A DNA stretch of 64,000 nucleotides from an uncultured virus (IMG/VR IMGVR_UViG_3300019373_000270) (taxonomy: Duplodnaviria > Heunggongvirae > Uroviricota > Caudoviricetes): IMG/VR virus record IMGVR_UViG_3300019373_000270; one strand, given 5' to 3'. Of this stretch, positions 178 to 63,897 are shown in pieces. The notes below the pieces were generated by a model. It was not told where the DNA came from. It saw nothing but the letters and a program-made list of their open reading frames with translations, and did no database searches. The position numbers were made by a program, and so were the translations under genes. Positions within the stretch are counted from its first letter, which is position 1. Every line of letters starts with the position of its first letter.

Positions 178-891
178 TCAAATAATTTTTGATGCAAACC
201 ACATTTTATCGTTGGTAATTAAACTCAAAAGTTCGATGAATTTTTCTATCGTCGTTTGATTGTTATATTCGGAGTATTGAAATCGAACCTGCAAAATTTC
301 TACTTCGCCGGATTCTACATTTCTTTGTTCAATAACAGAAACTACTTTAACTCCCAGATACTTATTCCGGATATTATCATAAATGGAAATATATCTATCA
401 TCAACCATTAAATGTTGACTGTAGGAGCAAGGGCTTTCATGTGTATCAACAAAGATCTTGTCATCGGGATTCCCTTGTAAATGAAAATGCTTTTGTTGAG
501 CATTATTATCATTGTTGTAAAAAGATAAAGTCCCGGCTGAATTTGCTGAGCATATCTTATAATATATGACATTAGAATCGTTGCTGTGTACAAACTGCAT
601 TTTTTTAGCTTCTTGTAAAAAATCCGGCAAACAAAAAGTTATAATACCACTATGTACGTTATCGGAATGGTCGCTGACAGAAACATCCACAAGATACTTT
701 TGAGATAGTTCGCATTTATAATGATTAGTAAATAGCGGAAAAGAATAAGGATTTATTTCACTTGCCATGGACGAGAAAACAGAACACCCAATAGCAGGAT
801 TTTGTGCTTTTATTAGTATGGTGATGCGGTTTTCCAGTTCAGCCCATTTTCCCAGTTTGCCTGCGGGAGAAAATCTAAAATTGTACGCCAT
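178..891 (-). CDS. hypothetical protein
   Basis: 237-aa ORF with upstream AAGGT; no motif recognised. Confidence 0.6.
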   Translation of the reverse strand: MAYNFRFSPAGKLGKWAELENRITILIKAQNPAIGCSVFSSMASEINPYSFPLFTNHYKCELSQKYLVDVSVSDHSDNVHSGIITFCLPDFLQEAKKMQFVHSNDSNVIYYKICSANSAGTLSFYNNDNNAQQKHFHLQGNPDDKIFVDTHESPCSYSQHLMVDDRYISIYDNIRNKYLGVKVVSVIEQRNVESGEVEILQVRFQYSEYNNQTTIEKFIELLSLITNDKMWFASKII

Positions 892-41395: not shown

Positions 41396-41404
41396 GAACC
41401 AAAA

Positions 41405-47189: not shown

Positions 47190-47217
47190 CACTAAAAGGA
47201 AGGAAATGACTCCTTCC

Positions 47218-47277
47218 TTTTATTATTATTAATTTTTATATATAATATTTATAAGAACATTTTTTTGAGAACTGGAG
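47218..47277 (+). promoter_or_regulatory. element-type promoter plus variant leader box
   Basis: TTTTAT-17-TATAAT(47241); TGAGAACTGGAG at 47266. Confidence 0.6.
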
Positions 47278-47286
47278 GGGATAAAA

Positions 47287-48090: not shown

Positions 48091-48130
48091 TCAGAGACCG
48101 AAGCGTTTTCTTTCAAAACAGAAAGCGCTT

Positions 48131-48190
48131 TTTTGTTGTGAAGAATTTTCACTTATAATTATATATAGAATTCCTAAAAGATGACTGGAG
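48131..48190 (+). promoter_or_regulatory. element-type promoter plus variant leader box for dnaE
   Basis: TTTTGT-17-TATAAT(48154); AGATGACTGGAG at 48179. Confidence 0.6.
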
Positions 48191-48198
48191 GTATAAAA

Positions 48199-51100: not shown

Positions 51101-52236
51101 TGTACATTTATAACAGCAGAGATATGGATCTCACCGTCAAAATACCCGACATCAACAAATCGGATGTAGGATTTATAGCCGATAAAGATGCTATACTTTT
51201 CGGCTTTAGAGGCATGAAGGGTGTTGGTGATGTAGATATCTCTTCGATAATCGATGAAAGAAAGAAAGGTGAATTTAAATCATTCAAGAATTTTATATCG
51301 AGGACAAATCCCTCGATCGATACGCTCAAAAATCTCATATTTGGCGGTGCTTTTGACTGTTTCGGGCATGCAAGAAAATCTTTGTTTGATTTCGGAGAAA
51401 AACTCAGGGACAATAAAAGCAAGCGTGAAACCGTTCTGAGCAAAATAGAAACTATCAAATCTAAACCTGCCGAAGAGATAACAGAAAAGGATAAGAAGAA
51501 AATAAAGGAGCTGGAACATACACATGAAGAACTGAAGAACGAGTATAAGAATATGATATGCGAACAGGGTTATGAGGATAAGATAGGCAGACTTGCAGCT
51601 GAAAGAGAGATACTTGGTACTTTTATAAGCGATCACCCTATAAACAGCTATAAGCTGTGCGATTTCGCTAAGATCAAGGATCTTCAGCCCGGAAAGGATA
51701 TTGCGGTCTGTGGATTGATAACGGATCTTCGCGTACTCAACAAAAAAAGTACAGGAGAGAAATTCTGCAGCTTTGCTTTGGATGATGGAACGAATACGAT
51801 CCAAACAACTGTTTTTACTAAGGCTTATGAAAAATTCGGTGAAAAACTCGTAGAGAACGAAGTCGTTTGTCTTATCGGAACAGTAAAAGAAGAAGTAGTA
51901 CAGTCGTTCAGCTTGAATGATGATGAAACTGCCGAAGAAGAAAAGGTACTTAAATTCTATGCCAATAATATAGGAAAAAAGCCAATAAAAAGACAGCATT
52001 CTATCTTGCTTGTTCTTCGTACTTCGGCTATGATCTTAACTAAAGAAGTAGATGGAAGAGTGCTAATTGACTATATAAAAGAAAATTATGAATCACCAAA
52101 TGGTGTAGGATACAATCTTTTGATTTTTGATGAATCATCTTCTTCGATAAGAAGATTTAGCGAAGGGATGATAGTAAAGTCATCAATCCTGATCGACAAA
52201 AACCTCAAAACTTTGAAAACAAATATAATGGAATAA
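48199..52236 (+). CDS. dnaE: DNA polymerase III alpha subunit with coiled-coil insertion in the PHP domain
   Basis: LHNHT..S.KDG, TDHG, GPGRGSAVGS, SMPDIDADF, KMDFLGL, YAFNKSHA, OB fold. Confidence 0.97.
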   Translation: MGIIKTLLLHNHTDNSVKDGAQTPKELVQRAKELDAPAVTLTDHGVLTGIFEFMNACEEAGIKGIPGVEAYIKEDDDEIRKHLIILAKDAQGYKAIEKAVTESNQRLVKIPSMGKDIPTMNKTILEKWFGAGSMGHDHTIATSACVQGVIASELTRNNKHQKQIEKALEKRKGYYNPSSSIFINISKELDDMTENEKILKEKQKELKKEANLATKKAENYMKKKEGSPDYDEAKVAYDNLIARKELAAKELVTVQSELAVIKKHISEIKNKLKPIKDSFANYQKYDSIIKEHEAKLLDEKCLMEKARKEAVYYRELFGKDNFFMELQFHGYEDEQYVFPRLCSIAKTLGIPCVPANDAHYTRKEDARRREMLVADSFKKTISVMNERDCQLYIKSDEELSDALCQILSKSDVEQAFENLRLIADNCNVVLPKEHHYPVYHLPEGETDSSYIRKLVLEGIEKRYPGGKAPDGTVWDQEHIDRMESELKIIDKMGYNHYHLVVQDYLNYGRQLGYNCPEGVGYTIGPGRGSAVGSLVCYLLGITDLDPIKYNLFFERYLNPERVSMPDIDADFANFVREDCIDYMREKYGVEGVCGVTTKGTLGIKAAILLAGRVNPKTHDDVQRVRAISKLVPKGAKHFTDQIDTESKGDVKNFMLNKYPAGSIEAQIIEDASTIEGLTVSFGRHAAAVIISDTGNVSDQVALINTGGAWAVQCTKEEAEAEVGLLKMDFLGLINLDIITAALRKIYRNTRRKINMNTDVHFEDDVFRNIFSTGNTDAVFQFSSSGMKQMLKEFKPSSFEDLILLVAAYRPGPMQYLADIIAVKHGNKPETYAIPELRPILNGTYGKTVYQEQVQEIFKKLAGYSLGQADLVRRAMSKKKLIELAKERESFLHGDPERGIKGCIANGINEADANKLFDEMMDFASYAFNKSHAAAYAYVAYQTAWLKYHYPTEYMAAVMENSKYDKLPMYIYNSRDMDLTVKIPDINKSDVGFIADKDAILFGFRGMKGVGDVDISSIIDERKKGEFKSFKNFISRTNPSIDTLKNLIFGGAFDCFGHARKSLFDFGEKLRDNKSKRETVLSKIETIKSKPAEEITEKDKKKIKELEHTHEELKNEYKNMICEQGYEDKIGRLAAEREILGTFISDHPINSYKLCDFAKIKDLQPGKDIAVCGLITDLRVLNKKSTGEKFCSFALDDGTNTIQTTVFTKAYEKFGEKLVENEVVCLIGTVKEEVVQSFSLNDDETAEEEKVLKFYANNIGKKPIKRQHSILLVLRTSAMILTKEVDGRVLIDYIKENYESPNGVGYNLLIFDESSSSIRRFSEGMIVKSSILIDKNLKTLKTNIME

Positions 52237-52340
52237 TTATTCTCACTAAAACGGGACCGAACGATCGGTTCCGTTTTTTTATTCAAGAAATTTTCTGCTA
52301 TAATTAAATTATAAAAATAAAGTGAAAGAAGGTGTAACAG

Positions 52341-52835
52341 ATGAGAAAAATGATAATTTTCAGTCTGATAGCATTGACATTATGTGTAAGTTCATGCGGC
52401 AACTCTAATAAGCCGGTGACTTCTGACAATTCCGGTAACGAATATTATACCCAAACAAACATGTCTGCGTTAGAATATTCGATGTACATAGCTAATAAGA
52501 TATCAGTCGCTACCGGACAGCTTAACACTCACATGACTAAGATCAGAAATGTCGCCAATGGTTCTTGTACTTATGAGGACGAGATAAGCGCCATCGAATC
52601 CTCTATCAAGATCCTTAAGGAAGATAAGATAGATCTGAACTATGTATATCCGCCTGACAGTTATGCTTCAACGAGAGACAATGCTTTGCAGTACTGGCAG
52701 GATGCGATAGATAAGCTCAGTGAAGTATCTGATGAGCTTTCAGATGATGATATTACAACAGAAAGAGCAACCGAACTGTCTTCCGATCTTTCTGATATCT
52801 TTACATCTATACAGTCACTTAATTTTGTCGTTTGA
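52341..52835 (+). CDS. lipoprotein
   Basis: LCVSS-C lipobox; helical body. Confidence 0.75.
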   Translation: MRKMIIFSLIALTLCVSSCGNSNKPVTSDNSGNEYYTQTNMSALEYSMYIANKISVATGQLNTHMTKIRNVANGSCTYEDEISAIESSIKILKEDKIDLNYVYPPDSYASTRDNALQYWQDAIDKLSEVSDELSDDDITTERATELSSDLSDIFTSIQSLNFVV

Positions 52836-52913
52836 TCACAAATACATTGCCGAGAATGTAAAAAAAACTGCTGTTTTCTCGGACAAAGAACAGCAATAAA
52901 TGAGGTGTTTTTT

Positions 52914-53747
52914 ATGGCAAAGGGCAATTATGTTATGTTTTGCGGACAAATCTTAAATGACCCGCAGATCAAAATGAATCAAAACTCGGAAATTTTCCAG
53001 GGTCGTTTCGTTATGAAAGTCTTGCGACGTTTTGTCGATGAAAATCGAAGGATCGAATTTTCAGATCCTATCATCGTAACAGGTAATCCGAGCGTTGCTA
53101 AGCTGATGATAAATTTCAAAAAATGGGATATCTGCATGATGAAAGGTGTCATCACGACCATGAACGTAACACGAAGCTGGATCTGTCCGGAGTGTGAATA
53201 TACTAATCAGCCCGTAGGTATGTACACACTTATCACTCCGATTTTTCTTGAAAAAATCATGGATATGTCAAAAGCTTTTGCAACTTCGAATGAAAGAGAC
53301 CAGCTTATCGAAGCTGAAGGCATCAAAATACTCAAGGCTCACAACGAAATATCCAATATAGTACATGTACTTGGTACGGTTTGTAAAATGACGGAACTGT
53401 ATGATAACGGAACGACCGCTACACTGAACTTCCAGCTCGCAGTTAACCGCAGTTATAGACTCATCGAAGGCGACCCGGATATCAGAACTGATTATCCTTG
53501 GGTAAGGCTGCATGGTGATGCTGCACGTGAAGCGGCCAGAGTGCTTGGTGTAAATTCAACCGTATTTATAGACGGTTCGTTATTCACAAAAATGGTGCAG
53601 AAAAAAACTTTTTGTGAAAACTGCGGACACGAACATATTATTAACGAACTTGTGTCAGAAATACATCCGTATTCTGTGGAATATCTGCATAACTGTAATA
53701 TTCCGAACGATGAATACACAGAAGATTACAGTGACTTTCCCGGATAA
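52914..53747 (+). CDS. tandem OB-fold SSB-like protein with two Zn ribbons
   Basis: NYVMFCGQI and NIVHVLGTVCK...FQLAVNR...RTDYPWV..HG; CPEC and CENC. Confidence 0.7.
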   Translation: MAKGNYVMFCGQILNDPQIKMNQNSEIFQGRFVMKVLRRFVDENRRIEFSDPIIVTGNPSVAKLMINFKKWDICMMKGVITTMNVTRSWICPECEYTNQPVGMYTLITPIFLEKIMDMSKAFATSNERDQLIEAEGIKILKAHNEISNIVHVLGTVCKMTELYDNGTTATLNFQLAVNRSYRLIEGDPDIRTDYPWVRLHGDAAREAARVLGVNSTVFIDGSLFTKMVQKKTFCENCGHEHIINELVSEIHPYSVEYLHNCNIPNDEYTEDYSDFPG

Positions 53748-53765
53748 TTGAAAGGACGTGTAAAA

Positions 53766-54602
53766 ATGGCTAATCTTCTTAACGAAAGATTATCTGACGA
53801 TAATGATATTCCAAAGAAAAAGAAACCTAAAAAACAGAAAAAGAAAAAAGCACAAGTTCAGGGACAGATAATAAAACCGATTTCCAAAAATGAAATATTA
53901 GAAAAAAGCAAGGCTGAAGAATCCCTATTTGATGAAAAATTAGAATCTTTAACTATGGAAGATTTTGTCAAAGAACAAAAACAGCTATCGAGAAGTAAGA
54001 GAAAATATTATTTCACAAAAATATTTATGTGTTTTCTGTGTGGATATTTACTGTTCCTTATCTATGGCGTTATGGTTACAACGTATGATTACGATGAAAA
54101 CGGGAACGTATCTGCTCAAATTATGTCGAAAAAAGACATAGAAGATCAAAATGAATATTCCACATTGCTTGGATACTATATGGATGCAAGAGGATTGTAC
54201 GAGAAGATACTCGTCTTGAATTATAGATATGATCAAGGTCAGGAAGAACAACTTGACCTCGTGCCTGAATACGAACTGCTTCTTGAAGATGCCAACAAAC
54301 TGATCGTTCAGCTAAGAGCAGTCGATCCGTCAAAAGAATATTCACCGGCTTATGCCTTGCTTATAAACTGGGTCGATACTGATATGGCATCTTACTTACA
54401 GGAAATATCTGCGGCTATATCACAGAACAATCCTGAACACATGCAGAATGCCATAAACGATAAAACAAGAACGTACAATGATTGTTATCAGCTGACTGCT
54501 AATATGATCAGTCTTGGAGAACGCATCAAGGGTGTCAGTGTTTCTGAACTTAAAGAGTGGTCTCCTGAAGAATTTATAAAAGAAGAAATGGGTGATGTAT
54601 AA
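53766..54602 (+). CDS. bitopic membrane protein
   Basis: Lys-rich N-terminus, single TM (IFMCFLCGYLLFLIYGVMV), helical body. Confidence 0.75.
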   Translation: MANLLNERLSDDNDIPKKKKPKKQKKKKAQVQGQIIKPISKNEILEKSKAEESLFDEKLESLTMEDFVKEQKQLSRSKRKYYFTKIFMCFLCGYLLFLIYGVMVTTYDYDENGNVSAQIMSKKDIEDQNEYSTLLGYYMDARGLYEKILVLNYRYDQGQEEQLDLVPEYELLLEDANKLIVQLRAVDPSKEYSPAYALLINWVDTDMASYLQEISAAISQNNPEHMQNAINDKTRTYNDCYQLTANMISLGERIKGVSVSELKEWSPEEFIKEEMGDV

Positions 54603-56122
54603 TGTCTGCATATAACGATCTCTTAAATAAGTACAATGTACTTGTAGCTAAATGTCAGTCGCTGCAAGAAACTATCATCAGCAAGGAAGAACAATGGAAA
54701 AATATGAGTGATGAATTTGCGGTTGTTAATGATAATGCAAGAAAATTGTGTACTCTTATCTTAGCAAAAGATAAGAGTCAGATCAACTTAGGCACAGGCA
54801 GCGGCGCATGGGGATTGCTGCAAACAAGGGACTTGATCCTGCAATCGATCGAAAGTTATAAAAAGTATAACAGCGATAGATCGCTTGCTCTCCAGCAGCT
54901 TCTGGATTTTGCAGAAGAAAAACAGCATCTTATCGATGGCCTGATGGATGAGCTGGAGTATTATAAGAATAACAGTGGAAAAAACGCTGATGATTACGAA
55001 GAAGAAAAAAAGGAAAAAGAAAAAGAAGCGGATCTGTCTGAGGCATTAGACAGTACGGATTATGAAGTAAAACAAAAAATAAAAGATAATAACATCAATA
55101 TAGAGCTTATCGACAACGAATCAGCTGTCAGCGACCTTATTGTTGATGCTATGAACGAACTGGATACTTTTATCCCGACTGAAAAATCAATTCCTATCAA
55201 GGATTCTAACGGAAAAATAGCACTGGCTAGAGAACAAAAAAGGCAAAAGGAAGTAGTTAAGAAATTTGCAGCTGAAATGGATATCGGAAAAATAATGAAT
55301 GACCTTTCTTCTATTCAAAAGGAAATAATCACTATAATCGGGGAAAAAGGTCTGTCCGAGAATCTGGAGATCGTCCAGGAACTTTACAACGCCGAAAGTA
55401 ATAAAACTAAAACAAAAGACAGCATCTCTGCTATGATCTATACAGCAGAGAGAGAAATGCAGGCGATGGGGATCATTACTTCTGAAAACATTTCTATTCC
55501 TCTCCAGGGAAAAACCAATGTAAAAATAATTCGAATGACGGAACTGGGAAACAGACTGTATAGCTTGATGCATAATAAGAAGCCGTGTATTGCTGAAGCA
55601 AACAGACTTCTGGCAGATCATGATAATATTCATCACGGCTATGGTATCAAAGCGATCTCTCAGGGGATACAGAATTCTGAGTTATACTTGCGTGTTAATA
55701 TGGACTGCAGAAAAGACCCGCTGATCGTTGACGAAAATAAAAACAGAAATGTAACATATATTCCGGATATTATAGCGATATACAAAGATGGAGGCTATAA
55801 GTGTTTTTTCGAGTACGAAAGAGGGTTTAGCTCAGAAGGAACTATTATTGAAAAATGCAATAAAATGTGCCATTTTACACGAAACATGTATTTTCTAACA
55901 AACAATAACAATAATGCTGAGACTCTTGCTAAACACCTTACAAAATGGAAAAAAGAAGCTGCTAAAAGAAAGATCAAAACGAAGATATATCTTTCTACAG
56001 CAAAGACTTTTCAGGCAAATAACTTTGATGTAAAGAAAAAATGGCAGTTTTTCTGGGGCGATAATGATGTTGAACCGGTAACAGAAAATAAGAATGTAAA
56101 AGTCGAACTCCCGGATAAGTGA
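54602..56122 (+). CDS. coiled-coil, wHTH and PD-(D/E)xK protein, replication-relaxation-like
   Basis: RMTELG, H.H, YIPDII...FFEYERG......K. Confidence 0.6.
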   Translation: MSAYNDLLNKYNVLVAKCQSLQETIISKEEQWKNMSDEFAVVNDNARKLCTLILAKDKSQINLGTGSGAWGLLQTRDLILQSIESYKKYNSDRSLALQQLLDFAEEKQHLIDGLMDELEYYKNNSGKNADDYEEEKKEKEKEADLSEALDSTDYEVKQKIKDNNINIELIDNESAVSDLIVDAMNELDTFIPTEKSIPIKDSNGKIALAREQKRQKEVVKKFAAEMDIGKIMNDLSSIQKEIITIIGEKGLSENLEIVQELYNAESNKTKTKDSISAMIYTAEREMQAMGIITSENISIPLQGKTNVKIIRMTELGNRLYSLMHNKKPCIAEANRLLADHDNIHHGYGIKAISQGIQNSELYLRVNMDCRKDPLIVDENKNRNVTYIPDIIAIYKDGGYKCFFEYERGFSSEGTIIEKCNKMCHFTRNMYFLTNNNNNAETLAKHLTKWKKEAAKRKIKTKIYLSTAKTFQANNFDVKKKWQFFWGDNDVEPVTENKNVKVELPDK

Positions 56123-56372: not shown

Positions 56373-56888
56373 ATGCAGGGAGTAAAAAGAGAAGTCTATA
56401 AACAGAGTATGACTGCACAGGAAGCAACAGCTTACATAAAAGCAGTCGGTTATCCTGTTATGGTACTACTTTTATCTATGTTTACCATAAGCCTTTTCGC
56501 ACAGTTCGGGACAAGACTTATAGCACCTATGACAGCGGCCATGTGGGTATTAGGTGTCCTTGAGTCAATTATTATCCGATCAATGAGAAAAGAAATAATC
56601 AAACAAACTCTGGCTTTTATCGGGATCTATCAGATAACACTGCTTGCGTGGAGGCAGGCGATAAAGATCGTATCAAATGTTACATCTGAACAGATCATGG
56701 CATCTTATAATCAGGTCATCACTCTAAGTCAATCTTCGGCACTCCCCGGTTATCTCCAGAATGCCTTGTGGATGACCGCCGTTGGAGTGCCTGTCGGTTA
56801 TATATGTATGCAAGGTAAAAGACTGGTAACATTTAACAAAAAGACAGACAAAGATAAAGCACTGCGTCAGTATCGTTCTATCAGATAA
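56373..56888 (+). CDS. polytopic membrane protein
   Basis: About four hydrophobic segments. Confidence 0.8.
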   Translation: MQGVKREVYKQSMTAQEATAYIKAVGYPVMVLLLSMFTISLFAQFGTRLIAPMTAAMWVLGVLESIIIRSMRKEIIKQTLAFIGIYQITLLAWRQAIKIVSNVTSEQIMASYNQVITLSQSSALPGYLQNALWMTAVGVPVGYICMQGKRLVTFNKKTDKDKALRQYRSIR

Positions 56889-57048: not shown

Positions 57049-60000
57049 ATGGCTTTGTCGGTTTTTGATATCAAAGAAATATTGCGTCCCAGAATTTCAA
57101 CTATGCCGTCCGACGATTTCAGGATCATTGATTCATGGGTTGAAGTTGACCAAAATTCTTCGAAATCGGTTCCCAAAAGACCGATAAAATACCTTTGTTA
57201 TAAAATAGAGGTGATAAATCCCGGCAGCGGTGAAAAAAATACCGTTTATAAAGCGCTGAAATTTTACAGGGTTAAAAGACTCCCTAAATCAGCAAAAGAA
57301 TCCAAAGCATTTATGGACATGCATTCTCAGGTTCTTGCAGCTTTGTACGAGAACGAGATCGACTTTGTGACCATTATTGCAAATATAATGGATCCGCCTT
57401 TGGGATTGTTATTCCTGTACGGTGTTCAGGGTGTCTCAAAAAACCTTGATGACGCAAAGATGATAGCAGATACTGACTATGTGTCTTTGGGAGCAGCTCT
57501 TCAAGGTACTTATAAAGTACTGCATATGCAGCATATAGAGCAGCAGGAAACAGAATGGCTCAGGCAGAAGATGTTCAATATGGACTACATGACGGCTGTG
57601 AGAGGCATACCTAAGGCTAATTCGCAAGGCGTTAATGTTTCTAAAACAACGATGGATAACAAACAGCAGAACGCTGACGGTTCGGGTACCCTTGAAGAGA
57701 TAATTCTCGGTATGTCTGATTATGAGTATGTTATCCAGATCTTATCCACTCCTGTAAAAATGGATACTCTGGCTGCATGGAGTGTTGCTAACCAGATGAA
57801 TATGACAGAATGGAATGAGCAGCTGCAAGGTACAAAGAACCTTAACTTCTCATTGAGTATCCCCATGATGTACATGGCAAATACATCAAATTCAAAAGGT
57901 TGGAATCAGGCGTATTCTGATTCTTCTACCGTTTCGCATGGAACAGGACACTCCTTCAATACGGGTTACGGAGAAAATCTCAGTAATGGTATCAGCATGA
58001 ATTACGGTCAGGCTGTTGGTCAGTCAACCGGACATACATTTTCAAATACCATCTCTAATACAGAGTCAATAACTCAGAGCGTGAGTCAGGGACAATCTTT
58101 AACGCACAGCGTAGGAGAAAGCCTCGGATTATCGCAAGGTCACACACAAGGATTTACTCAGGGTGTTTCCGAAAACTATGGTCATAACACATCTAACAGT
58201 CTTAACCATAGTATAAGCAATAATGTATCCAACAGTTTCGGTATCAGTCAGAATCACGGATATTCTCATGGAACATCTGTTAATATCGGTGAAAGTGTAA
58301 GTCAGGGTGCCGGTATATCCGAAGGATACGGATCGAGCATTTCTCAGAACTCCAGTCATTCCATTAATCAAGGTTCCAGTTTTAACAGTTCTGCTTCCCA
58401 GTCACAGGGATTTAGTCAGAGCCAGTCTTATAATCAATCCTTTGGTCAATCATCTTCCATGTCCAATTCACTATCAAGCGGCAGGTCGATGAATTTTGGT
58501 CAAGGAGAAAGCTGGAACACCGGTCAGAGTTTTACTCACGGTGCTTCACAGACTGCATCTCAAGGAATCAGTTTCGGTGAAAGTGCAAATGTCGGCAATA
58601 GCTGGAATACTTCCAACGGAATTACAGAAGGATATTCATCGGGAACATCAAGCAGTCACGGAATGAGTGCCGGGAATAGTCTGGGTGATGGAACTTCTTT
58701 TAGTACATCCAACAGTTCAGGTCATAATTCCGGAGGCAACATTAATTTTAGTGTTGGTCCGGTCTCTTCTGGAAGTTCTTCCGGTGATAGTACATCGTCC
58801 GGAACCACGAACGGTGATAGCATTAATATCTCTGTAAACATGGGTGAAAATGGCGGATATGGATTTTCTGAATCCAATAGTGTTTCTAACAGTTCGTCAT
58901 TCAGCGAAGGCGGTTCTTTTTCACATGGACAGAACTGGGGAGCAAGTTCTTCTCTTTCTCAGGGGCTGTCAGTCAGTGAAGGCTTGAGCGTCGGTCACGG
59001 CGGTTCGATAAATCAATCCTATGGTTTTAATGCGTCACAGTCTCAGGGTATAACTAACGGACAATCATTTTCTCAGTCTATTGGTACAGGACAGTCATTG
59101 TCCAGTACACAAGGAATATCCAACGGCTGGGGACAAAGTTACTCACTGGGCGAATCTTCGGGTATGGGAGCATCTCAAAGTCAAAATCAGGGCTTTTCAC
59201 AGAACTACGGCTCAAGTTCGACCTTTAGTCAAGGTCAGAGTGAATCTATATCCGAATCTGTTGGTACATCTCAGAGTCAGTCGGTAGGTTCTGGCGAATC
59301 GTGGGGACTTGGACAATCGGAAGGTTTCTCCGAAAGTATGGGATATTCAAGGTCTGCCTCTGATTCTCTTTCACGTTCTGTTTCTAATTCTATATCGAGT
59401 TCGGACAGCTACGGTCAGTCCTATTCTCAGTCACAAGGATATTCTCAGGGTATAAGCCGAGGAATGTCTGTAGGAGAAACATCTTCACAGTCATATACCC
59501 AAAATGTATCACAAGGCTCATCTATGAGTTCGGGAACAAGCAAGTCCGTATCTCAGGGACAAAGTATATCCGACAGCTTAGGCAGAAGTCTTGGTCAGTC
59601 GATGGGAACGTCCGGTGCTTTTGCTACATCTACAGGCGGATCAATGGGTCTTGGACCGTCGATCAGCTACGGCAAGTCTTACCAGTGGCTTGATCAGCAA
59701 GTCAAGGATATTTTGGAAATCCTTGATTATGAGAATGAAAGATTAAAGAATGCATTAAAAGGCAATGGTGCATTTTATACTTATGTATATATTGCCTGCG
59801 CATCACAAGATGCATTGGCGGCTGCAAAAGCACTCGCCAAATCATCTTGGCAGAATGATCATGCTCTCAGAATGCCGCTTCAAGTCCTTGATCTTGAATC
59901 GGAAGAACAAAGACATCTGCTTTACCACTTTGCCGCATTCTCAGCAGACATCACTAGAACTTCGGTTTCAGGCGTGTCTGAGTATAAATACGCAACAGTA

Positions 60001-61482
60001 CTGCTCCCCAGTGAACTTGTTGCGTATACTCATCCTCCGAGAGCTTCGGAAGGCGGTATATACAGTGATGTAAATGATGTTCCAAAATTTGCTGTACCTT
60101 CGATGATGCAGGGCGAGATCTACATGGGTACAGTGCTTTCATCGGAACGATTTACTATCAATAATGGATATTCAACTCCATTTGACTATAGAATAGATGA
60201 ATCCATGCTTATGCATGGTTATTTCACAGGTCAGTCGAGATCGGGTAAAACAGTTGCGGCGATGCGTTTTATAGCTGAACTTTCAAGAGCGAGAAGAAAA
60301 ACCACGGGTAAAAGGTTCAGGATCGTCTGCATGGATCCTAAGTCTGACTGGCGTTCTCTCGCAAGGTTCGTTGAACCTGAGCGATTTAACTTCTACAGCC
60401 TTGGCAATCCGAATTTCCATCCAATACACTTTAATCCGTGTAAGATACCTTACGGTGTTTATCCGCAAAAATGGGTTGACGGAATGATAGATATTTTCTG
60501 TCGTGCCTACGGGTTGCTCGAACGTGGTAAGCAAATGATGGCTGATACTATATATGCACTGTATAAAAAGGCCGGAGTCTTTGAAGCTATGGACAAGGCT
60601 GACTGGAAAAACACCGTTCCGGAACTTTCTAAAAAGGTTACGTTTAAGAAAATATATAAACATATGGAATCTTTGAAAATCGCACTTGATGATCCGAAGA
60701 ACCCCAGAGGAAGAGCCGGCAACGATCAGCGAGATGCTTTTGCAAGAATATTGGATAGACTCTCGGTGTTTGACCGTGAATATTCGATAGAAGCGAGACT
60801 TTTCGGTGGGGAAGACGGAATGGGTATCGACGATTTGATAGGTGCTGATGATATAACAGTGCTTGAATCGTCCGGACTCGAATCGACTTTCTCAAACTTT
60901 ATCTTCGGTATTATCACATCGGGATTCTATCAGTATGCTAAGGCTCAGGAAGGCGGATATAAGGCACTCGACCAGTACGAAACCATTCTGGTCATTGAGG
61001 AGGCAAATAAGGTACTGACGGGCAGTGATACAGCAGGTACAGGCGGCGGACAGTCGCTTGGAATGAGCGGTCAGTCCGAATTTGAGGAAATTCTTGACCA
61101 GTCAGCAGGATACGGACTGTTTGTTATAGCGATCACACAAAAAATCGCAGATATGCCTTCGTCTATCATGGCTAATGCCGGACTTGTGTTTGCCGGTAGA
61201 CTTAAGCGTGCTGATGATATTACTGTCGTTGTCCGTACTATTGCGAGAGAAGAAAGATACGAGGACCGTGATCTTGTAAAATGGTTCCCGAGATCTCCTA
61301 CAGGATGGTTTGTTTGCCAAACATCAAGGGGTTATGACTTCCTTGATGCAGAACCGGTACTTGTAAAAATAGCTGCTCTCAATTTCGACCCGCCCACGAA
61401 TGACGAGATAGACGAAATTCTTATACAGAAAAAGATAAATATCATGCTCAACAGACAAGAACAGGTACCGGTCAACGCTTAA
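57049..61482 (+). CDS. giant HerA/VirB4/FtsK-like ATPase with ~600-aa alternating Ser/Gly insert
   Basis: Walker A GQSRSGKT, DPK.DW, Walker B ILVIEEAN, ITQ; insert at aa ~261-880. Confidence 0.85.
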   Translation: MALSVFDIKEILRPRISTMPSDDFRIIDSWVEVDQNSSKSVPKRPIKYLCYKIEVINPGSGEKNTVYKALKFYRVKRLPKSAKESKAFMDMHSQVLAALYENEIDFVTIIANIMDPPLGLLFLYGVQGVSKNLDDAKMIADTDYVSLGAALQGTYKVLHMQHIEQQETEWLRQKMFNMDYMTAVRGIPKANSQGVNVSKTTMDNKQQNADGSGTLEEIILGMSDYEYVIQILSTPVKMDTLAAWSVANQMNMTEWNEQLQGTKNLNFSLSIPMMYMANTSNSKGWNQAYSDSSTVSHGTGHSFNTGYGENLSNGISMNYGQAVGQSTGHTFSNTISNTESITQSVSQGQSLTHSVGESLGLSQGHTQGFTQGVSENYGHNTSNSLNHSISNNVSNSFGISQNHGYSHGTSVNIGESVSQGAGISEGYGSSISQNSSHSINQGSSFNSSASQSQGFSQSQSYNQSFGQSSSMSNSLSSGRSMNFGQGESWNTGQSFTHGASQTASQGISFGESANVGNSWNTSNGITEGYSSGTSSSHGMSAGNSLGDGTSFSTSNSSGHNSGGNINFSVGPVSSGSSSGDSTSSGTTNGDSINISVNMGENGGYGFSESNSVSNSSSFSEGGSFSHGQNWGASSSLSQGLSVSEGLSVGHGGSINQSYGFNASQSQGITNGQSFSQSIGTGQSLSSTQGISNGWGQSYSLGESSGMGASQSQNQGFSQNYGSSSTFSQGQSESISESVGTSQSQSVGSGESWGLGQSEGFSESMGYSRSASDSLSRSVSNSISSSDSYGQSYSQSQGYSQGISRGMSVGETSSQSYTQNVSQGSSMSSGTSKSVSQGQSISDSLGRSLGQSMGTSGAFATSTGGSMGLGPSISYGKSYQWLDQQVKDILEILDYENERLKNALKGNGAFYTYVYIACASQDALAAAKALAKSSWQNDHALRMPLQVLDLESEEQRHLLYHFAAFSADITRTSVSGVSEYKYATVLLPSELVAYTHPPRASEGGIYSDVNDVPKFAVPSMMQGEIYMGTVLSSERFTINNGYSTPFDYRIDESMLMHGYFTGQSRSGKTVAAMRFIAELSRARRKTTGKRFRIVCMDPKSDWRSLARFVEPERFNFYSLGNPNFHPIHFNPCKIPYGVYPQKWVDGMIDIFCRAYGLLERGKQMMADTIYALYKKAGVFEAMDKADWKNTVPELSKKVTFKKIYKHMESLKIALDDPKNPRGRAGNDQRDAFARILDRLSVFDREYSIEARLFGGEDGMGIDDLIGADDITVLESSGLESTFSNFIFGIITSGFYQYAKAQEGGYKALDQYETILVIEEANKVLTGSDTAGTGGGQSLGMSGQSEFEEILDQSAGYGLFVIAITQKIADMPSSIMANAGLVFAGRLKRADDITVVVRTIAREERYEDRDLVKWFPRSPTGWFVCQTSRGYDFLDAEPVLVKIAALNFDPPTNDEIDEILIQKKINIMLNRQEQVPVNA

Positions 61483-61594: not shown

Positions 61595-62341
61595 ATGACA
61601 AAATCACGTAAAATACTGATTCTTTTAGTTCTGGCATTTATTTCTGCCATAGTTTCCGGTTATCTCATCTATACGTATTGCAATTCGACTAAAGGATTCA
61701 TTTACGTCTATAATGACAACTACAAAGCCGGAACAAAAATCGAGAAAAATATGTTTTCTGCGATGAAGGTTGATGATCAAATTATAAAAACGGGACAAAA
61801 GGGAAGTCTTGACACCTACTATATCACAGGAGAACATTTCTCTAAAGTGTGTGAAGGTAATGAGTATCTTTTGGACGATGTTGTAAAGGATCAGCCGCTT
61901 ACGTTTGTTGATCTGGCTCTCGCCAGTGGAACAAGCATCGAAAGATCTTTATCCGGTAACGGTATGGCTGTAACTATCCCTATCTCAGGTACGGCAGCTG
62001 TTACAGATGATCTTAGAGTCGGTTCTGTGGTAAATATCTACACAAGTGATGCCAGCGGAACTAAACTGATTTTTGAAAACATGCGTATAATAGCCAGAAA
62101 CGACGATAAAACAATATCTAAAGTGACTTTTGAAACATCTCCCGATGATACACTTGATCTGATAAATGCAACAAACAATAAAAGATTGTATTTCTCGCTG
62201 GTGTCACCTGTCGTTGATGAAAATGCCCACACAGGGTATGTTGTTAGTAAAGACGATGATTCTTCGAGTAATACTTCTGACGACCCGGACTACACCGAAG
62301 AAGTTGAACTGCCCGAAGATGATTTACCTCAAACAAACTGA
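61595..62341 (+). CDS. cpaB: Tad/Flp pilus assembly protein, CpaB/RcpC-like (SAF domain)
   Basis: N-terminal TM; KAGTKI; MAVTIPI.......LRVGSVVNI; LIFENMRII. Confidence 0.7.
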   Translation: MTKSRKILILLVLAFISAIVSGYLIYTYCNSTKGFIYVYNDNYKAGTKIEKNMFSAMKVDDQIIKTGQKGSLDTYYITGEHFSKVCEGNEYLLDDVVKDQPLTFVDLALASGTSIERSLSGNGMAVTIPISGTAAVTDDLRVGSVVNIYTSDASGTKLIFENMRIIARNDDKTISKVTFETSPDDTLDLINATNNKRLYFSLVSPVVDENAHTGYVVSKDDDSSSNTSDDPDYTEEVELPEDDLPQTN

Positions 62342-62364: not shown

Positions 62365-63897
62365 TTGAAAAAAGTACTGATAGTAGATAACAGACCTGCT
62401 TATTACCAGAGCATTACAAGCCGAATAGAAATAAGCGATGAACTGGAAATAGATGCAGAAGTTTTTCTGTATACAAATAATTCGGAATTTCAGGAGTATA
62501 TCACGAAAAATCATTATGATATTATTGCAATTGCAAGCGGTGTAGTCGCTGCTGATGATTTTCTAATGCCTAATGGACAGAATATTTACGGGTATCTCGA
62601 AAGAAAAAACACGGATAACACTGTTTTTACCAACAACGGCATAACTGATCTCGGATACTACAATGATTCTTACGGATTACTCCAAAAACTTGAATCATTA
62701 GAAAAAAATGTTAATGTTTCCGAGATAAAAGCGCCAGACATAAAAGGGGCTAAACAGGAACTGCCTGTCGAAATAAAGAATGATGTTCCGGCGGTAAAAA
62801 AAGAAGAAATAAAAGAAACTGTAAACGATAGTGAACCATCTAAAGCGGTTTTTTGCTCAAATTGCGGAGCGAAACTTCTGCCCGAAACTAAATTTTGTCA
62901 CTTATGCGGTACACCTGTATCAGCAGCGAATAGTGCAGAAACTATCAGGCTTGCCGCAGAGAAAAGAGAAAATAACACTGAAAATATAAATGAACTGGTC
63001 AATATGGATATTGCACCAAGCCGTCATAAGTGCAAGATAGTATCTACGTATGCAGCAAAAGGCGGAGTCGGTAAAACCACCATAGCTGCAAATCTTGCAG
63101 TACTTCTCGCTCTCACATCGACTGACAGGCGCAGAACAAAAGTTTGTATAGTCGATTTTAATATAGACTTCGGAGATGTACGCACTACCTTGAATTTTTC
63201 CCATAAAGGAAAAACAATGGTAGACTGGCTTGCTGACATAGATCTGAAAAGCAGCACCGGGATCGACTCCAAAGATATAAATTATACCAAAGAAGAGATC
63301 GAAAACTTTCTTCAGAAAAAAGTATTTAAAAAGTCTTTGAAAAATAATGAGGTCGAAATATACGGATTGATAGCACCTCTTATTCATAAAGACTCCATGG
63401 GAATATCGGAGAAAAGTTTTGAAATAATGCTGCGAAACCTCAAGGAAAACGGAGACTTCGATTACATTATCTGTGATACAGGTAATAATACAAGAGATTC
63501 CTCTTTTACAGCTCTTGACATGGCGGATACAATATTTCTTATTGCTACTCAGGACGTAACGACCGTTAACTGCAATGACAGCTTTCTAAAAACAATGGAT
63601 GAGATAGCCGACTTCGACAAGAGTAAAGTATATCTGGTTATCAATAATATAATTTCCGCAAAAGAAACCGGGGTATCTGTCAAAGATATCGAAGAGGCTG
63701 TACGAGATTTTATATGTATAGCGAGAATAAGAAGATATCCCGGTATCATTCTTGCAAACAACAAAGGTATTCCCGCTGTCTTTGACTCAGGCTCACAATT
63801 TACGAAGGAGCTGTCCGGTATAGTTTCGGTTATAACGGATGAAAATCTTGAAATAAAACCTAAGAAAAAGGGTATATTATCTATTTTTAAAAAGTAG
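62365..63897 (+). CDS. CpaE/TadZ-like MinD/ParA ATPase with receiver-like N-terminus and zinc ribbon
   Basis: KKVLIVD; CSNCG...CHLCG; AKGGVGKTT; VDFNIDFGDV; DYIICDTG. Confidence 0.8.
   Translation: MKKVLIVDNRPAYYQSITSRIEISDELEIDAEVFLYTNNSEFQEYITKNHYDIIAIASGVVAADDFLMPNGQNIYGYLERKNTDNTVFTNNGITDLGYYNDSYGLLQKLESLEKNVNVSEIKAPDIKGAKQELPVEIKNDVPAVKKEEIKETVNDSEPSKAVFCSNCGAKLLPETKFCHLCGTPVSAANSAETIRLAAEKRENNTENINELVNMDIAPSRHKCKIVSTYAAKGGVGKTTIAANLAVLLALTSTDRRRTKVCIVDFNIDFGDVRTTLNFSHKGKTMVDWLADIDLKSSTGIDSKDINYTKEEIENFLQKKVFKKSLKNNEVEIYGLIAPLIHKDSMGISEKSFEIMLRNLKENGDFDYIICDTGNNTRDSSFTALDMADTIFLIATQDVTTVNCNDSFLKTMDEIADFDKSKVYLVINNIISAKETGVSVKDIEEAVRDFICIARIRRYPGIILANNKGIPAVFDSGSQFTKELSGIVSVITDENLEIKPKKKGILSIFKK

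What the first reader, a model, noticed from the sequence alone, without database searches (positions are those of the whole stretch)
57829..59688. A ~600-residue symmetric beta-hairpin inside a HerA/VirB4-like ATPase: candidate self-built DNA conduit
Seen in sequence: residues ~261-880 alternate almost strictly small (S/G/T/N) and bulky. The only prolines are P272 (nt 57862), P571 (58759) and P870 (59656), exactly 299 residues apart. Small residues sit at even positions before G570-P571 and at odd positions after it. This is the register of one antiparallel hairpin with a two-residue turn and all small residues on one face. The tip (NINFSVGPV) is hydrophobic and the base strands (LNFSLSIP / GLGPSISY) mirror each other. 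It is not a nucleotide tandem repeat, so equal arm length looks selected. Established: HerA/VirB4/FtsK ATPases are usually hexameric DNA or secretion motors, and beta-pore toxins (alpha-hemolysin, aerolysin, anthrax PA) build barrels from per-subunit hairpins with Ser/Thr/Gly-rich lumens. Inference: six hairpins could form a 12-stranded barrel up to ~100 nm long (300 x 0.33 nm, less with tilt) attached to the motor, long enough to cross Gram-positive envelopes. This would be an unusual transfer channel.
Basis: partly seen in the sequence, partly recalled or inferred. Interest (0 to 1): 0.92.

Follow-up and report, generated by a model that had tools for sequence, protein, structure and literature searches.

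The report
Ultra-long beta-hairpin in a motor ATPase
A clostridial plasmid protein carries a 600-residue insert whose two halves match each other residue for residue like the two strands of one hairpin about 0.1 micrometre long, attached to a DNA-pump-type ATPase at the head of a pilus operon, and nothing of that size is known.

Summary
ORF 57049-61482 (1477 aa) belongs to NCBIfam NF033849 'serine-rich protein', which has no described function.

Residues about 263-876 alternate S/G/N/T with any residue. The phase flips once, at the centre.

Pairing residue i with 1139-i gives 0 Gly-Gly pairs of 143 (14.2 expected, P=5e-10) and 0 Asn/Thr-Asn/Thr pairs. Thirteen of 15 His face an Asp or Glu.

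The same rule (i+j = anchor sum - 3) gives zero Gly-Gly in 108 of 117 homologues with inserts of 358-842 residues. Arm lengths correlate at r=0.97. Near-identical strains differ by paired indels (24+24, 36+36).

So the insert is one two-stranded antiparallel ribbon with about 300 residues per arm. The turn is V569-G570, not G570-P571.

The C-domain has a VirB4/HerA/DndH fold (Z 27-31). A conserved cassette runs from a small membrane protein through this gene to the Tad pilus genes, on megaplasmid-like elements.

The hollow 12-stranded DNA barrel is not supported. There is only one strand register, the small face shows strict size complementarity, and there is no hydrophobic belt. It is not excluded either.

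AlphaFold2 gave no confident structure for the insert. The function is inferred only.

The parts
57049..61482 (+). ORF of 1477 aa, member of NCBIfam NF033849 'serine-rich protein'
   Evidence: ORF; 1563.4 bits, cutoff 650; 642 homologues with E<=1e-10 among 7999 candidates scored
57049..57834 (+). N-terminal globular domain (residues 1-262), alpha/beta, no named family
   Evidence: Pfam 0 families. PDB phmmer found nothing below E 0.38. In the AF2 model of homologue P0026 the domain has pLDDT mostly 80-94. It aligns with the N-half of TrwK/VirB4 only at rmsd about 16 A.
57835..58752 (+). N-arm of the ribbon (residues 263-568); small residues at even positions; base strand NLNFSLSIP at 57838-57864
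58753..58758 (+). Turn V569-G570, the centre of register i+j=1139, inside tip motif NINFSVGPV (58738-58764)
   Evidence: In homologues the centre computed from the anchors alone falls on a tip motif such as ..GGS[IV][ST]P|FG[ILV]GGN...
58759..59676 (+). C-arm of the ribbon (residues 571-876); small residues at odd positions; base strand GLGPSISY at 59647-59670
59677..60105 (+). Middle helical/beta region (residues 877-1019) between the ribbon and the ATPase core
   Evidence: AF2 model of P0026, residues 397-525, pLDDT mostly 70-92
60106..61479 (+). P-loop ATPase domain with a VirB4/HerA/DndH-C-like fold; Walker A GQSRSGKT at 60229-60252; Walker B ILVIEE at 60985-61002
   Evidence: motifs; Foldseek: TrwK/VirB4 8rtd E 3e-14, DndH-C 7es4, HerA 4d2i; VIA Z 30.8 to 7es4, 28.8 to VirB4 4ag5, 26.9 to HerA 4d2i; phmmer to HerA 8wiv, E 0.051
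56373..56888 (+). 171-aa small membrane protein with several hydrophobic stretches, the conserved gene directly upstream
   Evidence: sequence; hydrophobic stretches read by eye. tblastn finds it directly upstream in 18 of 26 related loci.
52905..56122 (+). Conserved upstream genes: SSB-like 280 aa, 284-aa protein with one hydrophobic helix, 506-aa protein of unknown family
   Evidence: SSB domain, E 3e-9; synteny; Atlas lead to Replic_Relax at 0.77, below the 0.9 mark
61595..62341 (+). CpaB/RcpC-like protein, first gene of the Tad cassette
   Evidence: RcpC E 0.0033, 17.8 bits, below the cutoff of 28.8; synteny
62365..63897 (+). TadZ/ParA-like ATPase with a zinc ribbon
   Evidence: AAA_31 5e-11, ParA 1.3e-7, Zn_Ribbon_1 1.5e-7. 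Downstream homologues occur in 21 of 26 loci. In R. albus pRUMAL01 and Alkaliphilus pB6464 it is followed by CpaF, two TadB/C-type genes, pilin and an A24 peptidase.

Best explanation
SHOWN. Residues about 263-876 are one continuous two-stranded antiparallel beta-ribbon. Residue i of the N-arm lies opposite residue 1139-i of the C-arm, and the turn is V569-G570. One face is made only of S/G/N/T and obeys size complementarity. Gly is never opposite Gly. Asn or Thr is never opposite Asn or Thr. Asn prefers Gly. The other face carries ordinary cross-strand pairs such as His-Asp/Glu, Glu-Lys, Val-Val and Thr-Thr. Evolution keeps the two arms matched residue for residue while the total length varies 2.4-fold.

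INFERRED. With a strand rise of about 0.33 nm per residue (recalled), each arm spans up to about 100 nm. The constrained small face evolves 2.4 times more slowly than the outer face. It is most likely buried, by ribbons of neighbouring subunits of the oligomeric VirB4/HerA-type ATPase packing small face to small face. The result would be a stiff rod projecting from the motor rather than an open pipe.

The motor and the small membrane protein encoded just upstream head a Tad (Flp) pilus operon. The operon sits on megaplasmid-like elements that also carry SSB, primase, helicases and Pol III alpha. I therefore read the rod as the reach or stalk element of an undescribed pilus-linked DNA-transfer machine of Gram-positive anaerobes. 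Its conserved hydrophobic-Gly tip would be the contact site.

My odds: antiparallel ribbon 0.9; buried small face or bundling 0.5; role in DNA transfer 0.3.
For: Window protein:
- 0 of 143 Gly-Gly pairs at i+j=1139, with 14.2 expected; P=5.4e-10.
- 25 Gly-Gly pairs at 1137 against 14.2 expected.
- 0 Asn/Thr-Asn/Thr pairs.
- 13 of 15 His have Asp or Glu at the direct or -2 diagonal partner.

Family:
- Zero Gly-Gly at a+b-3 in 108 of 117 homologues with spans of 300 or more. Expected counts are 5-18 each.
- Pooled over 66 proteins: GG 0/646 expected, NN 1/61, TN 0/59, TT 8/68, GN 487/162, NG 569/244. On the outer face: HD 160/16, EK 48/20, VV 136/73, TT 169/99.
- Mutual information peaks only at d=-3 and d=-5 on the small face (0.227 and 0.134 bits) and at d=-1 and d=+1 on the outer face. 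Background is about 0.012.
- All 93 even spans have exactly one phase switch. All 24 odd spans have none. The switch lies within 3 residues of mid-span in 79 of 93. Arm lengths correlate at r=0.972, range 178-419.
- Paired indels occur between near-identical proteins: 24+24 at mirrored places (P0119 vs P0113) and 36+36 (P0119 vs P0110).
- An anchor-free scan in distant relatives gives 0/6.9 at c and 18/7.0 at c-2 in Neobacillus, and 0/4.8 in Alkaliphilus.
- The small face changes at 0.126 per site and the outer face at 0.308 between close homologues.
- Two independent DNA runs assemble the whole gene with no indel.

Motor and context:
- ATPase fold.
- Synteny with Tad genes.
Against: - AlphaFold2 gave no structure for the insert. 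The window's residues 251-890 folded alone gave mean pLDDT 34.1 with no strands. The insert of P0026 stayed below pLDDT 50 even with a 69-sequence alignment.
- Nine of 117 homologues break the Gly-Gly rule. Seven of them are in one clade and carry unpaired indels, such as 24+0 in P0118, which represents a cluster of 1104 sequences. They may be mis-assemblies or tolerated bulges.
- Double substitutions at partner sites are in excess (81 against 28 expected). The excess is as large at shifted registers (56-80), so that test is not register-specific.
- Sliding 80-residue windows find the register in only 3 of 6 windows of the window protein.
- Burial and bundling rest on inference from pair statistics. 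A lone coiled ribbon with a concave small face could give similar rules.
- The protein has no signal peptide (read by eye), no membrane segment and no LPXTG. Any passage of the rod out of the cytoplasm has no known route.
- No function has been tested anywhere.
Confidence: 0.55

Rival explanations
1. First reader's model. Six hairpins of a hexameric motor join edge to edge into a hollow 12-stranded barrel up to about 100 nm long. Its Ser/Gly-lined lumen conducts DNA across the envelopes.
For: - The hairpin itself is real.
- The VirB4/HerA fold is that of ring-forming motors (that they form rings is recalled).
- A small polar face resembles the lumen of beta-pore stems (recalled).
- The neighbouring genes are DNA-handling genes and a pilus operon.
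Against: - Only one N-arm/C-arm register exists in 301 offsets: z=-25 at d=-3 and +23 at d=-5. The next strongest values are flanking echoes at -7 and -1. A barrel of hairpins needs a second, inter-subunit register.
- On the small face Thr-Thr, Asn-Asn and Gly-Gly are all excluded, while Thr-Thr is enriched on the outer face. A lumen of about 1 nm filled with water would not impose this.
- The outer-face hydrophobic fraction is 0.23-0.45 everywhere except the base strands (0.88), so there is no membrane belt.
- The insert has a net charge of about -20.
Confidence: 0.12
2. A cytoplasmic reach arm. The topology is that of SMC/Rad50: globular parts joined by a long antiparallel arm with a binding tip. 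Here the arm is built from a beta-ribbon instead of a coiled coil. It would tether or capture plasmid DNA or partner proteins about 100 nm from the membrane-bound motor.
For: - Both flanking domains are predicted soluble, and there is no export signal.
- The arms come back to one base.
- The tip motif is conserved.
- Arm length is conserved through paired indels, as in coiled-coil arms (the SMC/Rad50 comparison is recalled).
- SSB, primase, helicases and Pol III alpha lie next to the gene.
Against: - The ATPase core is not split between the two ends of the arm (Walker A at residue 1061, Walker B at 1313).
- The composition is almost free of Lys and Arg (7 of 597) and has no Cys. That looks more like extracellular fibrous proteins (recalled).
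- The conserved neighbours are membrane and pilus proteins.
Confidence: 0.2
3. An intermolecular cross-beta or silk-like material. Arms of many molecules pair with each other into sheets or fibres, forming a functional amyloid-like matrix rather than a defined hairpin per subunit.
For: Alternation of small residues recalls silk and steric zippers (recalled). The statistics show that N-arm and C-arm pair antiparallel but cannot tell whether the two arms belong to one chain.
Against: - The register is fixed to the two anchors of the same chain, and the computed centre falls on a turn motif.
- All 93 even spans have one central switch.
- The base strands are predicted as paired strands next to the globular domains.
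Confidence: 0.05
4. A disordered serine-rich linker or glycosylated spacer, as in serine-rich repeat adhesins, with no fixed structure.
For: AlphaFold2 pLDDT of 34 and below 50 for the insert. Low-complexity composition. A weak NCBIfam hit to ClfA, 20.3 bits.
Against: - The exact mirrored register, size complementarity, His-acid pairs and paired indels have no explanation in a disordered chain.
- The ClfA score is far below its cutoff of 1150.
- There is no LPXTG.
- No SecA2/Y2-type or glycosyltransferase genes appear in the annotated neighbourhoods.
Confidence: 0.03

Closest known systems
NCBIfam NF033849 'ser_rich_anae_1' (serine-rich protein)
   Same: The window protein is a full-length member: 1563 bits against a cutoff of 650. 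Homologues carry that name in R. albus, Anaerostipes, Lachnoclostridium and Alkaliphilus.
   Different: The family has only a descriptive name. Six literature searches found no structure, register rule or function (listings and abstract starts only).
VirB4 (TrwK) of type IV secretion, and HerA / DndH-C / TrwB of the FtsK-HerA group of P-loop ATPases
   Same: The fold of the C-domain: VIA Z 30.8 (7es4 DndH-C), 28.8 (4ag5 VirB4), 26.9 (4d2i HerA), 24.1 (1e9s TrwB). Walker A and Walker B are present. A small membrane protein is encoded just upstream, as VirB3 is for VirB4 (that comparison is recalled).
   Different: No Pfam family reaches E 0.01, neither DUF87 nor the VirB4 families. No recognised type IV secretion genes lie nearby. 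A 600-residue ribbon is inserted between the N-domain and the rest. The structure matches cannot tell VirB4 from HerA or DndH.
Stems of beta-barrel pore-forming toxins (alpha-hemolysin, aerolysin, anthrax protective antigen)
   Same: A per-subunit antiparallel hairpin with strict two-residue alternation and small polar residues on one face (recalled for the toxins; here).
   Different: Toxin hairpins have tens of residues per arm (recalled), against about 300 here. They have a hydrophobic outer belt, which this insert lacks. They need a second inter-subunit register, which is not seen. This protein is not a secreted monomer.
SMC / Rad50 / SbcC antiparallel coiled-coil arms
   Same: The topology: globular parts at the base, a long antiparallel arm, a conserved tip, and arm length kept by matched changes in both halves (recalled for SMC/Rad50; here).
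   Different: The arm is a beta-ribbon, not a coiled coil. The ATPase is of the HerA/VirB4 type and is not split by the arm. There is no sequence relation.
Silk fibroin crystalline repeats and steric-zipper cross-beta spines
   Same: Alternation of very small residues puts a flat small face on a beta-sheet that can pack tightly (recalled).
   Different: The insert is not a short tandem repeat at DNA or protein level. It is a single defined hairpin per chain, with a fixed register set by two globular anchors.
Serine-rich repeat glycoprotein adhesins (Fap1, GspB, PsrP, ClfA-type SD repeats)
   Same: Serine-rich low-complexity composition.
   Different: No LPXTG. ClfA scores 20 bits against a cutoff of 1150. 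The flanks are cytoplasmic-type domains. The strict register is incompatible with a disordered glycosylated stalk.

Membership tests
NCBIfam NF033849 ser_rich_anae_1 | Whole-protein score above the curated cutoff (650 bits) | tested here: met
   1563.4 bits. The N-domain alone scores 293 bits over profile positions 1-216. The C-domain alone scores 900 bits over positions 591-1163.
FtsK-HerA group / VirB4-like P-loop ATPases | Walker A and Walker B motifs | tested here: met
   GQSRSGKT at residues 1061-1068 and ILVIEE at 1313-1318
FtsK-HerA group / VirB4-like P-loop ATPases | Fold of the ATPase domain | tested here: met
   On the AF2 model of homologue P0026 (72% identical in this domain): Foldseek E 3e-14 to 1e-10; VIA Z 30.8, 28.8 and 26.9, rmsd 3.0-3.2 A over 324-349 residues
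HerA (Pfam DUF87 PF01935 / HerA_C) | Match to the Pfam family models | tested here: not met
   0 Pfam families at E<=0.01 for the whole protein or the C-domain. The only sequence links are phmmer E 0.051 to HerA 8wiv, tblastn E 4e-15 at 22.6% identity to a DUF87-annotated plasmid protein, and Atlas feature neighbours carrying DUF87.
VirB4 of type IV secretion systems | Match to VirB4 family models and co-occurrence with other T4SS genes (VirB3/6/8, coupling protein, relaxase) | tested here: not met
   No Pfam VirB4 family hit. The annotated neighbourhoods in pRUMAL01 and pB6464 list Tad genes and no T4SS genes. The match to full-length TrwK is Z 20.9 at rmsd 16.5 A.
Ring (hexamer) formation of HerA/VirB4 motors | Oligomeric ring | not tested
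   No oligomer of the ATPase domain was modelled. Ring formation is assumed from the relatives (recalled).
Beta-barrel pore-forming toxin stem | Amphipathic hairpin with alternating pattern | tested here: met
   Strict two-residue alternation with one central switch
Beta-barrel pore-forming toxin stem | Hydrophobic outward-facing belt long enough to span a membrane | tested here: not met
   The outer-face hydrophobic fraction is 0.23-0.45 in all 10-residue bins from base or tip, except the base strands at 0.88.
Beta-barrel pore-forming toxin stem | Second, inter-subunit strand register closing a barrel | tested here: not met
   The scan of d=-301..301 shows one register only. The absence of a statistical trace does not prove the absence of the contact.
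Serine-rich repeat adhesins / MSCRAMM | Cell-wall sorting signal, family model, accessory secretion genes | tested here: not met
   No LPXTG. ClfA scores 20.3 bits against a cutoff of 1150. No such genes appear in the neighbourhoods.
Beta-solenoid / beta-helix | Repeat period of one coil (parallel register i to i+L) | tested here: not met
   The same-arm Gly-Gly ratio against shift shows only a period of 4 and no coil-length peak up to 60. There are no tandem repeats.
Tad (Flp) pilus operon | CpaB/RcpC, TadZ, CpaF/TadA, TadB, TadC, pilin and prepilin peptidase in one cluster | tested here: met
   The window holds the CpaB-like and TadZ-like genes before it ends. The syntenic pRUMAL01 and pB6464 continue with CpaF, two TadB/C-type genes, an Flp pilin (annotated in pB6464) and an A24 peptidase. 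TadZ-like occurs in 21 of 26 loci and CpaF in 16 of 26.

The most novel reading that the evidence does not exclude
Ribbons from the subunits of one VirB4/HerA-type ring assemble into a single fibre or tube about 0.1 micrometre long. It is threaded tip-first through the membrane partner and the thick Gram-positive wall. It serves as the self-built stalk, guide or conduit of a new, Tad-pilus-linked conjugation machine of gut and rumen Clostridia. If so, a motor would build its own envelope-spanning channel from a loop of its own chain.
Probability: 0.15. Interest if true: 0.97.

Novelty: categorically new. Interest (0 to 1): 0.88.

Why it matters
A single beta-hairpin with about 300 residues per arm, kept in exact register across hundreds of sequences, is to my knowledge without precedent. 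My six searches of the held library found no description of it.

It would be a new kind of protein rod. It is a beta-ribbon counterpart of the SMC/Rad50 coiled-coil arm, with simple and readable packing rules: Gly never opposite Gly, Asn with Gly, His with Asp or Glu. Protein designers could use those rules.

The rod is attached to a VirB4/HerA-type motor at the head of Tad pilus operons on megaplasmid-like elements. These elements are common in rumen and gut Clostridia (642 homologues; sheep, bovine and other gut metagenomes from 12 studies).

It may therefore expose an undescribed route of DNA transfer in Gram-positive anaerobes. How DNA crosses their thick wall is an open question.

It also shows that AlphaFold2's low confidence on low-complexity sequence can hide strongly constrained structure.

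Tried and rejected
- **AlphaFold2, window residues 251-890 alone.** pLDDT 34.1 and no strands. This is no evidence either way for a low-complexity single sequence.
- **AlphaFold2, short homologue P0026 with alignment A1.** The domains are good. The insert is below pLDDT 50, and only the base strands 263-268 and 386-391 are predicted. P0026 and P0027 may be collapsed assemblies. P0027 breaks the Gly rule (4 pairs, 4.3 expected).
- **Complex prediction, four copies of tip segment residues 510-629.** Verdict 'no answer', score 0.01. This says nothing for or against bundling.
- **Sliding-window register search in the window protein.** Noisy: the correct offset won in 3 of 6 windows.
- **Hydrophobicity correlation between the arms.** It peaks at 1143 with r=0.44 but is weak.
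- **Double-substitution (compensatory change) test.** The excess is not register-specific.
- **mRNA or DNA palindrome as the cause of the mirror pattern.** Rejected. No inverted repeat joins the arms, and the Asn-Gly preference does not fit codon complementarity (inference).
- **Insert-less relatives.** The 'shorter' search returned fragments only. The most distant relative seen, a 999-aa protein of Pontibacillus, has a shorter alternating insert that is too short to test.
- **Phage origin.** No tblastn match in the phage collection. There are only weak PHROG hits to the ATPase core.
- **Own genome.** None is held.
- **RNA.** Contigs from an RNA library cover parts of the gene. This does not show transcription.
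Full report
**The object.** The finding lies inside one ORF, 57049..61482 on the + strand, 1477 aa. Pfam names nothing in it, whole or as separate N- and C-domains. NCBIfam places it firmly in NF033849 'ser_rich_anae_1, serine-rich protein' with 1563 bits against a cutoff of 650. That family has no function attached.

A search with the C-domain found 642 relatives at E<=1e-10 among 7999 candidates scored. The best 120 were 983-1719 aa long. Where they are named at all they are called 'serine-rich protein', in Ruminococcus albus, Anaerostipes caccae and Lachnoclostridium phocaeense.

Between P235 and P943 the only prolines are P272, P571 and P870, 299 residues apart. S/G/T/N occupy 15 of 15 even positions per 30-residue window from 341 to 550, and 15 of 15 odd positions from 581 to 850. 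On the small face 144 of 148 N-arm residues and 147 of 149 C-arm residues are S/G/N/T. The other face is mixed: Q, H, N, F, I, T, S, V, Y, E.

The DNA is not repetitive. There is one weak 24-nt x 1.9 array, and only short imperfect repeats, with no inverted repeat joining the arms.

**The register test.** If the two halves are strands of one hairpin, residue i must have a fixed partner c-i. I scanned c.

In the window's own translation, c=1139 gives 0 Gly-Gly pairs among 143 small-face pairs. The arms hold 44 and 46 Gly, so 14.2 pairs are expected. The hypergeometric P is 5.4e-10. At c=1137 there are 25 pairs and at c=1141 there are 7. None of the other 60 odd offsets gives fewer than 7 (done on P0001).

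No Asn or Thr faces an Asn or Thr at c=1139. On the outer face, 13 of 15 His have Asp or Glu at the direct (1139) or diagonal (1137) partner. By my estimate about 2.6 would be expected by chance.

Searches used P0001, which differs from the window protein at 6 residues, one of them in the insert. One search repeated the key counts on the window translation.

**The family obeys the same rule whatever its length.** I mapped two anchors, the equivalents of P272 (a) and P870 (b), by local alignment of the conserved flanks. This worked in 119 of 120 proteins.
- Among the 117 with spans of 300 or more (min 358, median 487, max 842), 108 have zero Gly-Gly pairs at i+j=a+b-3. Between 5 and 18 are expected in each.
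- All 93 even spans have exactly one phase switch and all 24 odd spans have none. This is what a fixed phase at both anchors demands.
- The switch is within 3 residues of mid-span in 79 of 93 and within 6 in 88 of 93.
- N-arm and C-arm lengths correlate at r=0.972 over 178-419 residues.
- In a non-redundant set of 68 inserts (5-mer overlap filter, spans of 300 or more), the Gly-Gly correlation peaks at the same offset in 59 of 68.
- Mutual information stands out only at d=-3 (0.227 bit) and d=-5 (0.134) on the small face, and at d=-1 (0.077) and d=+1 (0.045) on the outer face. Background is about 0.012.

**Pair preferences.** These were pooled over 66 proteins. For that set I left out P0057, P0093 and P0104, the three of the 68 with non-zero counts (2, 1 and 3 pairs), and added P0110. 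With them the pooled Gly-Gly count would be about 6, not 0.

Direct pairs on the small face, observed against expected:

| Pair | Observed | Expected |
|---|---|---|
| GG | 0 | 646 |
| NN | 1 | 61 |
| TN | 0 | 59 |
| NT | 6 | 71 |
| TT | 8 | 68 |
| SN | 60 | 256 |
| GN | 487 | 162 |
| NG | 569 | 244 |

SG and GS are enriched as well.

Direct pairs on the outer face:

| Pair | Observed | Expected |
|---|---|---|
| HD | 160 | 16 |
| EK | 48 | 20 |
| VV | 136 | 73 |
| TT | 169 | 99 |
| LL | 39 | 15 |

The outer face thus shows ordinary antiparallel cross-strand preferences. The small face shows a size window: never two Gly, never two larger residues. Thr-Thr is favoured on one face and forbidden on the other. 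This is why I infer that the small face is sterically confined.

Between close homologues of equal span (16 independent pairs), the small face changes at 0.126 per site and the outer face at 0.308.

**Paired indels.** In one clade the inserts are identical except for indels.
- P0113 lacks 24 residues at 133-156 from the N anchor and 24 at 134-157 from the C anchor, relative to P0119.
- P0110 lacks 36+36. Gap placement is ambiguous there, but its Gly-Gly count stays 0.
- P0001 and P0003 differ by 8 residues about 95 from the N base and 2+6 residues 99-107 from the C base.

Against this, the same clade holds unpaired variants. P0118 has 24+0, P0115-P0117 have 12+24, P0112 has 28+24, P0109 has 44+32 and P0104 has 24+114. 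These break the Gly rule, with 3-16 pairs. P0118 represents a cluster of 1104 sequences. I cannot tell mis-assembly of short reads from tolerated bulges.

For the window's own gene, two independent DNA runs assembled all 4434 bases in one contig. They show 35 and 52 substitutions and no indel.

**The tip.** The centre computed from the anchors alone, (a+b-3)/2, lands on a recognisable turn in most proteins. Examples are ..GGSITP|FGLGGN.. and ..GA|FGIG... In the window the turn is V569-G570, inside NINFSVGPV.

**Distant relatives.** An anchor-free scan finds the same signature in Neobacillus (51% identical C-domain): 0 Gly-Gly pairs against 6.9 expected at c, and 18 against 7.0 at c-2. In Alkaliphilus (44%) it finds 0 against 4.8. 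A 999-aa DUF87-annotated protein of a Pontibacillus plasmid (22.6% identity, E 4e-15) has a shorter alternating insert that is too short to test.

**One register only.** A scan of 301 offsets (d=-301 to 301) gives z=-25.4 at d=-3 and +23.2 at d=-5, with echoes at -7 and -1 (z=-11 and -9). Nothing else exceeds |z|=7. Same-arm shifts show a period of 4 in Gly placement and no coil-length period.

So I see no trace of the second, inter-subunit register that a closed barrel of hairpins would need. I also see no sign of a solenoid.

The outer face is 23-45% hydrophobic in all 10-residue bins except the base strands (88%). Basic residues fall from 5-12% in the first 60 or so residues from the base to about 2% further out.

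**Structure prediction.** AlphaFold2 on the window's residues 251-890 alone gave pLDDT 34.1 and no strands.

The 983-aa homologue P0026, run with a 69-sequence alignment (A1), gave mean pLDDT 72.6. The N-domain and ATPase domain are good. The insert is below pLDDT 50, and only the base strands are predicted. The prediction therefore neither supports nor refutes the ribbon. I count it as evidence against.

**The motor.** On the P0026 model, Foldseek's best matches are TrwK/VirB4 of R388 (8rtd, E 3e-14), DndH-C (7es4), HerA (4d2i) and SIR2-HerA (8wld).

| Structure | VIA Z | rmsd and aligned residues |
|---|---|---|
| DndH-C | 30.8 | 3.0 A, 349 |
| VirB4 4ag5 | 28.8 | 3.1 A, 347 |
| HerA 4d2i | 26.9 | 3.2 A, 324 |
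| TrwB | 24.1 | not recorded here |
| Full-length TrwK | 20.9 | 16.5 A, 608 |

Walker A (GQSRSGKT, residues 1061-1068) and Walker B (ILVIEE, 1313-1318) are intact. 'HerA/VirB4-like' is right at fold level. Membership in any one of those families is not shown.

**Context.** The window is syntenic with R. albus 7 megaplasmid pRUMAL01 (420 kb), whose copy is 89% identical in the C-domain. A 436-kb Alkaliphilus plasmid holds a 44% relative.

In both plasmids the gene order is SSB, two unknown genes, a small membrane protein, the serine-rich protein, a CpaB-like gene, a TadZ-like ATPase, CpaF, two TadB/C-type genes, a pilin and an A24 peptidase.

Across 26 loci (2 plasmids and 24 genome contigs of Lachnospiraceae, Oscillospiraceae, Blautia, Anaerostipes, Ruminiclostridium, Acutalibacter, Fusicatenibacter and Neobacillus):
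- The 171-aa membrane protein is found directly upstream in 18.
- A TadZ-like gene is found downstream in 21, and CpaF in 16.
- Of the 5 loci without TadZ, 3 end at the gene. The other 2 (L012, L016) have 7 kb or more of downstream sequence without a hit.

Upstream in the window lie Pol III alpha, two RecD2-like helicases, a primase zinc finger and SSB. Further upstream are a DnaG-type primase, NrdD, a methylase, PIN and PemK toxins, DUF4314 and DUF3945. There is no phage match.

It called the insert disordered. My counts contradict that point.

**Reading.**

Shown: an antiparallel, residue-exact pairing of two arms of about 300 residues; a confined small face; a VirB4/HerA-type ATPase; and a conserved link to a small membrane protein and a Tad operon on mobile megaplasmid-like DNA.

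Inferred:
- The length is about 100 nm, from a strand rise of about 0.33 nm per residue (recalled).
- The small face is buried by ribbon-ribbon packing within the motor oligomer, giving a rod. A lone coiled ribbon with a concave small face is an alternative.
- The role is a reach or stalk element in pilus-linked DNA transfer.

Whether the rod stays in the cytoplasm or crosses the envelope is open.
- For outside: the near-absence of Lys and Arg away from the base, the lack of Cys, and the use of His-acid pairs hint at an extracellular milieu.
- For inside: there is no export signal or membrane segment.

**Literature.** Six full-text searches returned nothing on this family, on such a hairpin, or on a Tad-linked VirB4/HerA motor in Clostridia. 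I saw only listings and abstract starts. I opened no paper and no supplements. Subscription journals are not covered. Statements about toxin stems, SMC/Rad50, silk and VirB3 are recalled and come from no call.

Noticed in passing
window 37573-53747 and 1-37000: The whole window looks like a megaplasmid-type mobile element syntenic with R. albus 7 pRUMAL01. It carries Pol III alpha, two RecD2-like helicases, two primase-type genes, two SSB genes, NrdD, a DNA methylase, DUF4314 and DUF3945. It also carries a dockerin protein (1067-3001) and a BspA-type LRR protein (7350-8318).
   Followed up: partly
window 54602-56122: The conserved 506-aa upstream protein has no family in Pfam, NCBIfam or PHROGs. 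A weak Atlas lead (0.77, below the mark) points to Replic_Relax. It could be the DNA-processing partner.
   Followed up: partly
window 57862-59658 (insert): His is used as the positive partner of cross-strand ion pairs: 13 of 15 His face Asp or Glu. In the family HD is 160 against 16 expected. Lys and Arg are almost absent (7 of 597), and 6 of the 7 lie within about 100 residues of the base. This may reflect pH-sensitive stability or avoidance of trypsin-like proteases in gut or rumen fluid.
   Followed up: partly
proteins P0104-P0119 (relatives, not in the window): Near-identical strains differ only by indels in multiples of 4-12 residues in the arms. Paired variants keep the Gly rule and unpaired ones break it. 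These are either assembly artefacts in an internally repetitive clade or snapshots of how arm length evolves.
   Followed up: partly
window 39620-41296: An Fe-only-hydrogenase-like protein with ferredoxin-type clusters is encoded among the replication genes of the element.
   Followed up: no
window 3078-3485 (-) and 22767-23129 (+): A PIN-domain protein and a PemK/MazF-type toxin gene, probably toxin-antitoxin modules that stabilise the element.
   Followed up: no
loci L012 and L025: Contigs holding the gene are binned into MAGs labelled Methanocorpusculum and Bacteroides. Since all other carriers are Bacillota, these are probably mis-binned mobile-element contigs.
   Followed up: no
window 57049-61482: Contigs of a metatranscriptome library of a mixed culture (X19) cover parts of the gene, including the tip (58493-58863). 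This does not show transcription, since DNA can be present in such libraries.
   Followed up: partly
window 58001-60000: G+C is 0.44 in the insert against about 0.33-0.40 in most of the window, as expected from Ser/Gly codons.
   Followed up: no
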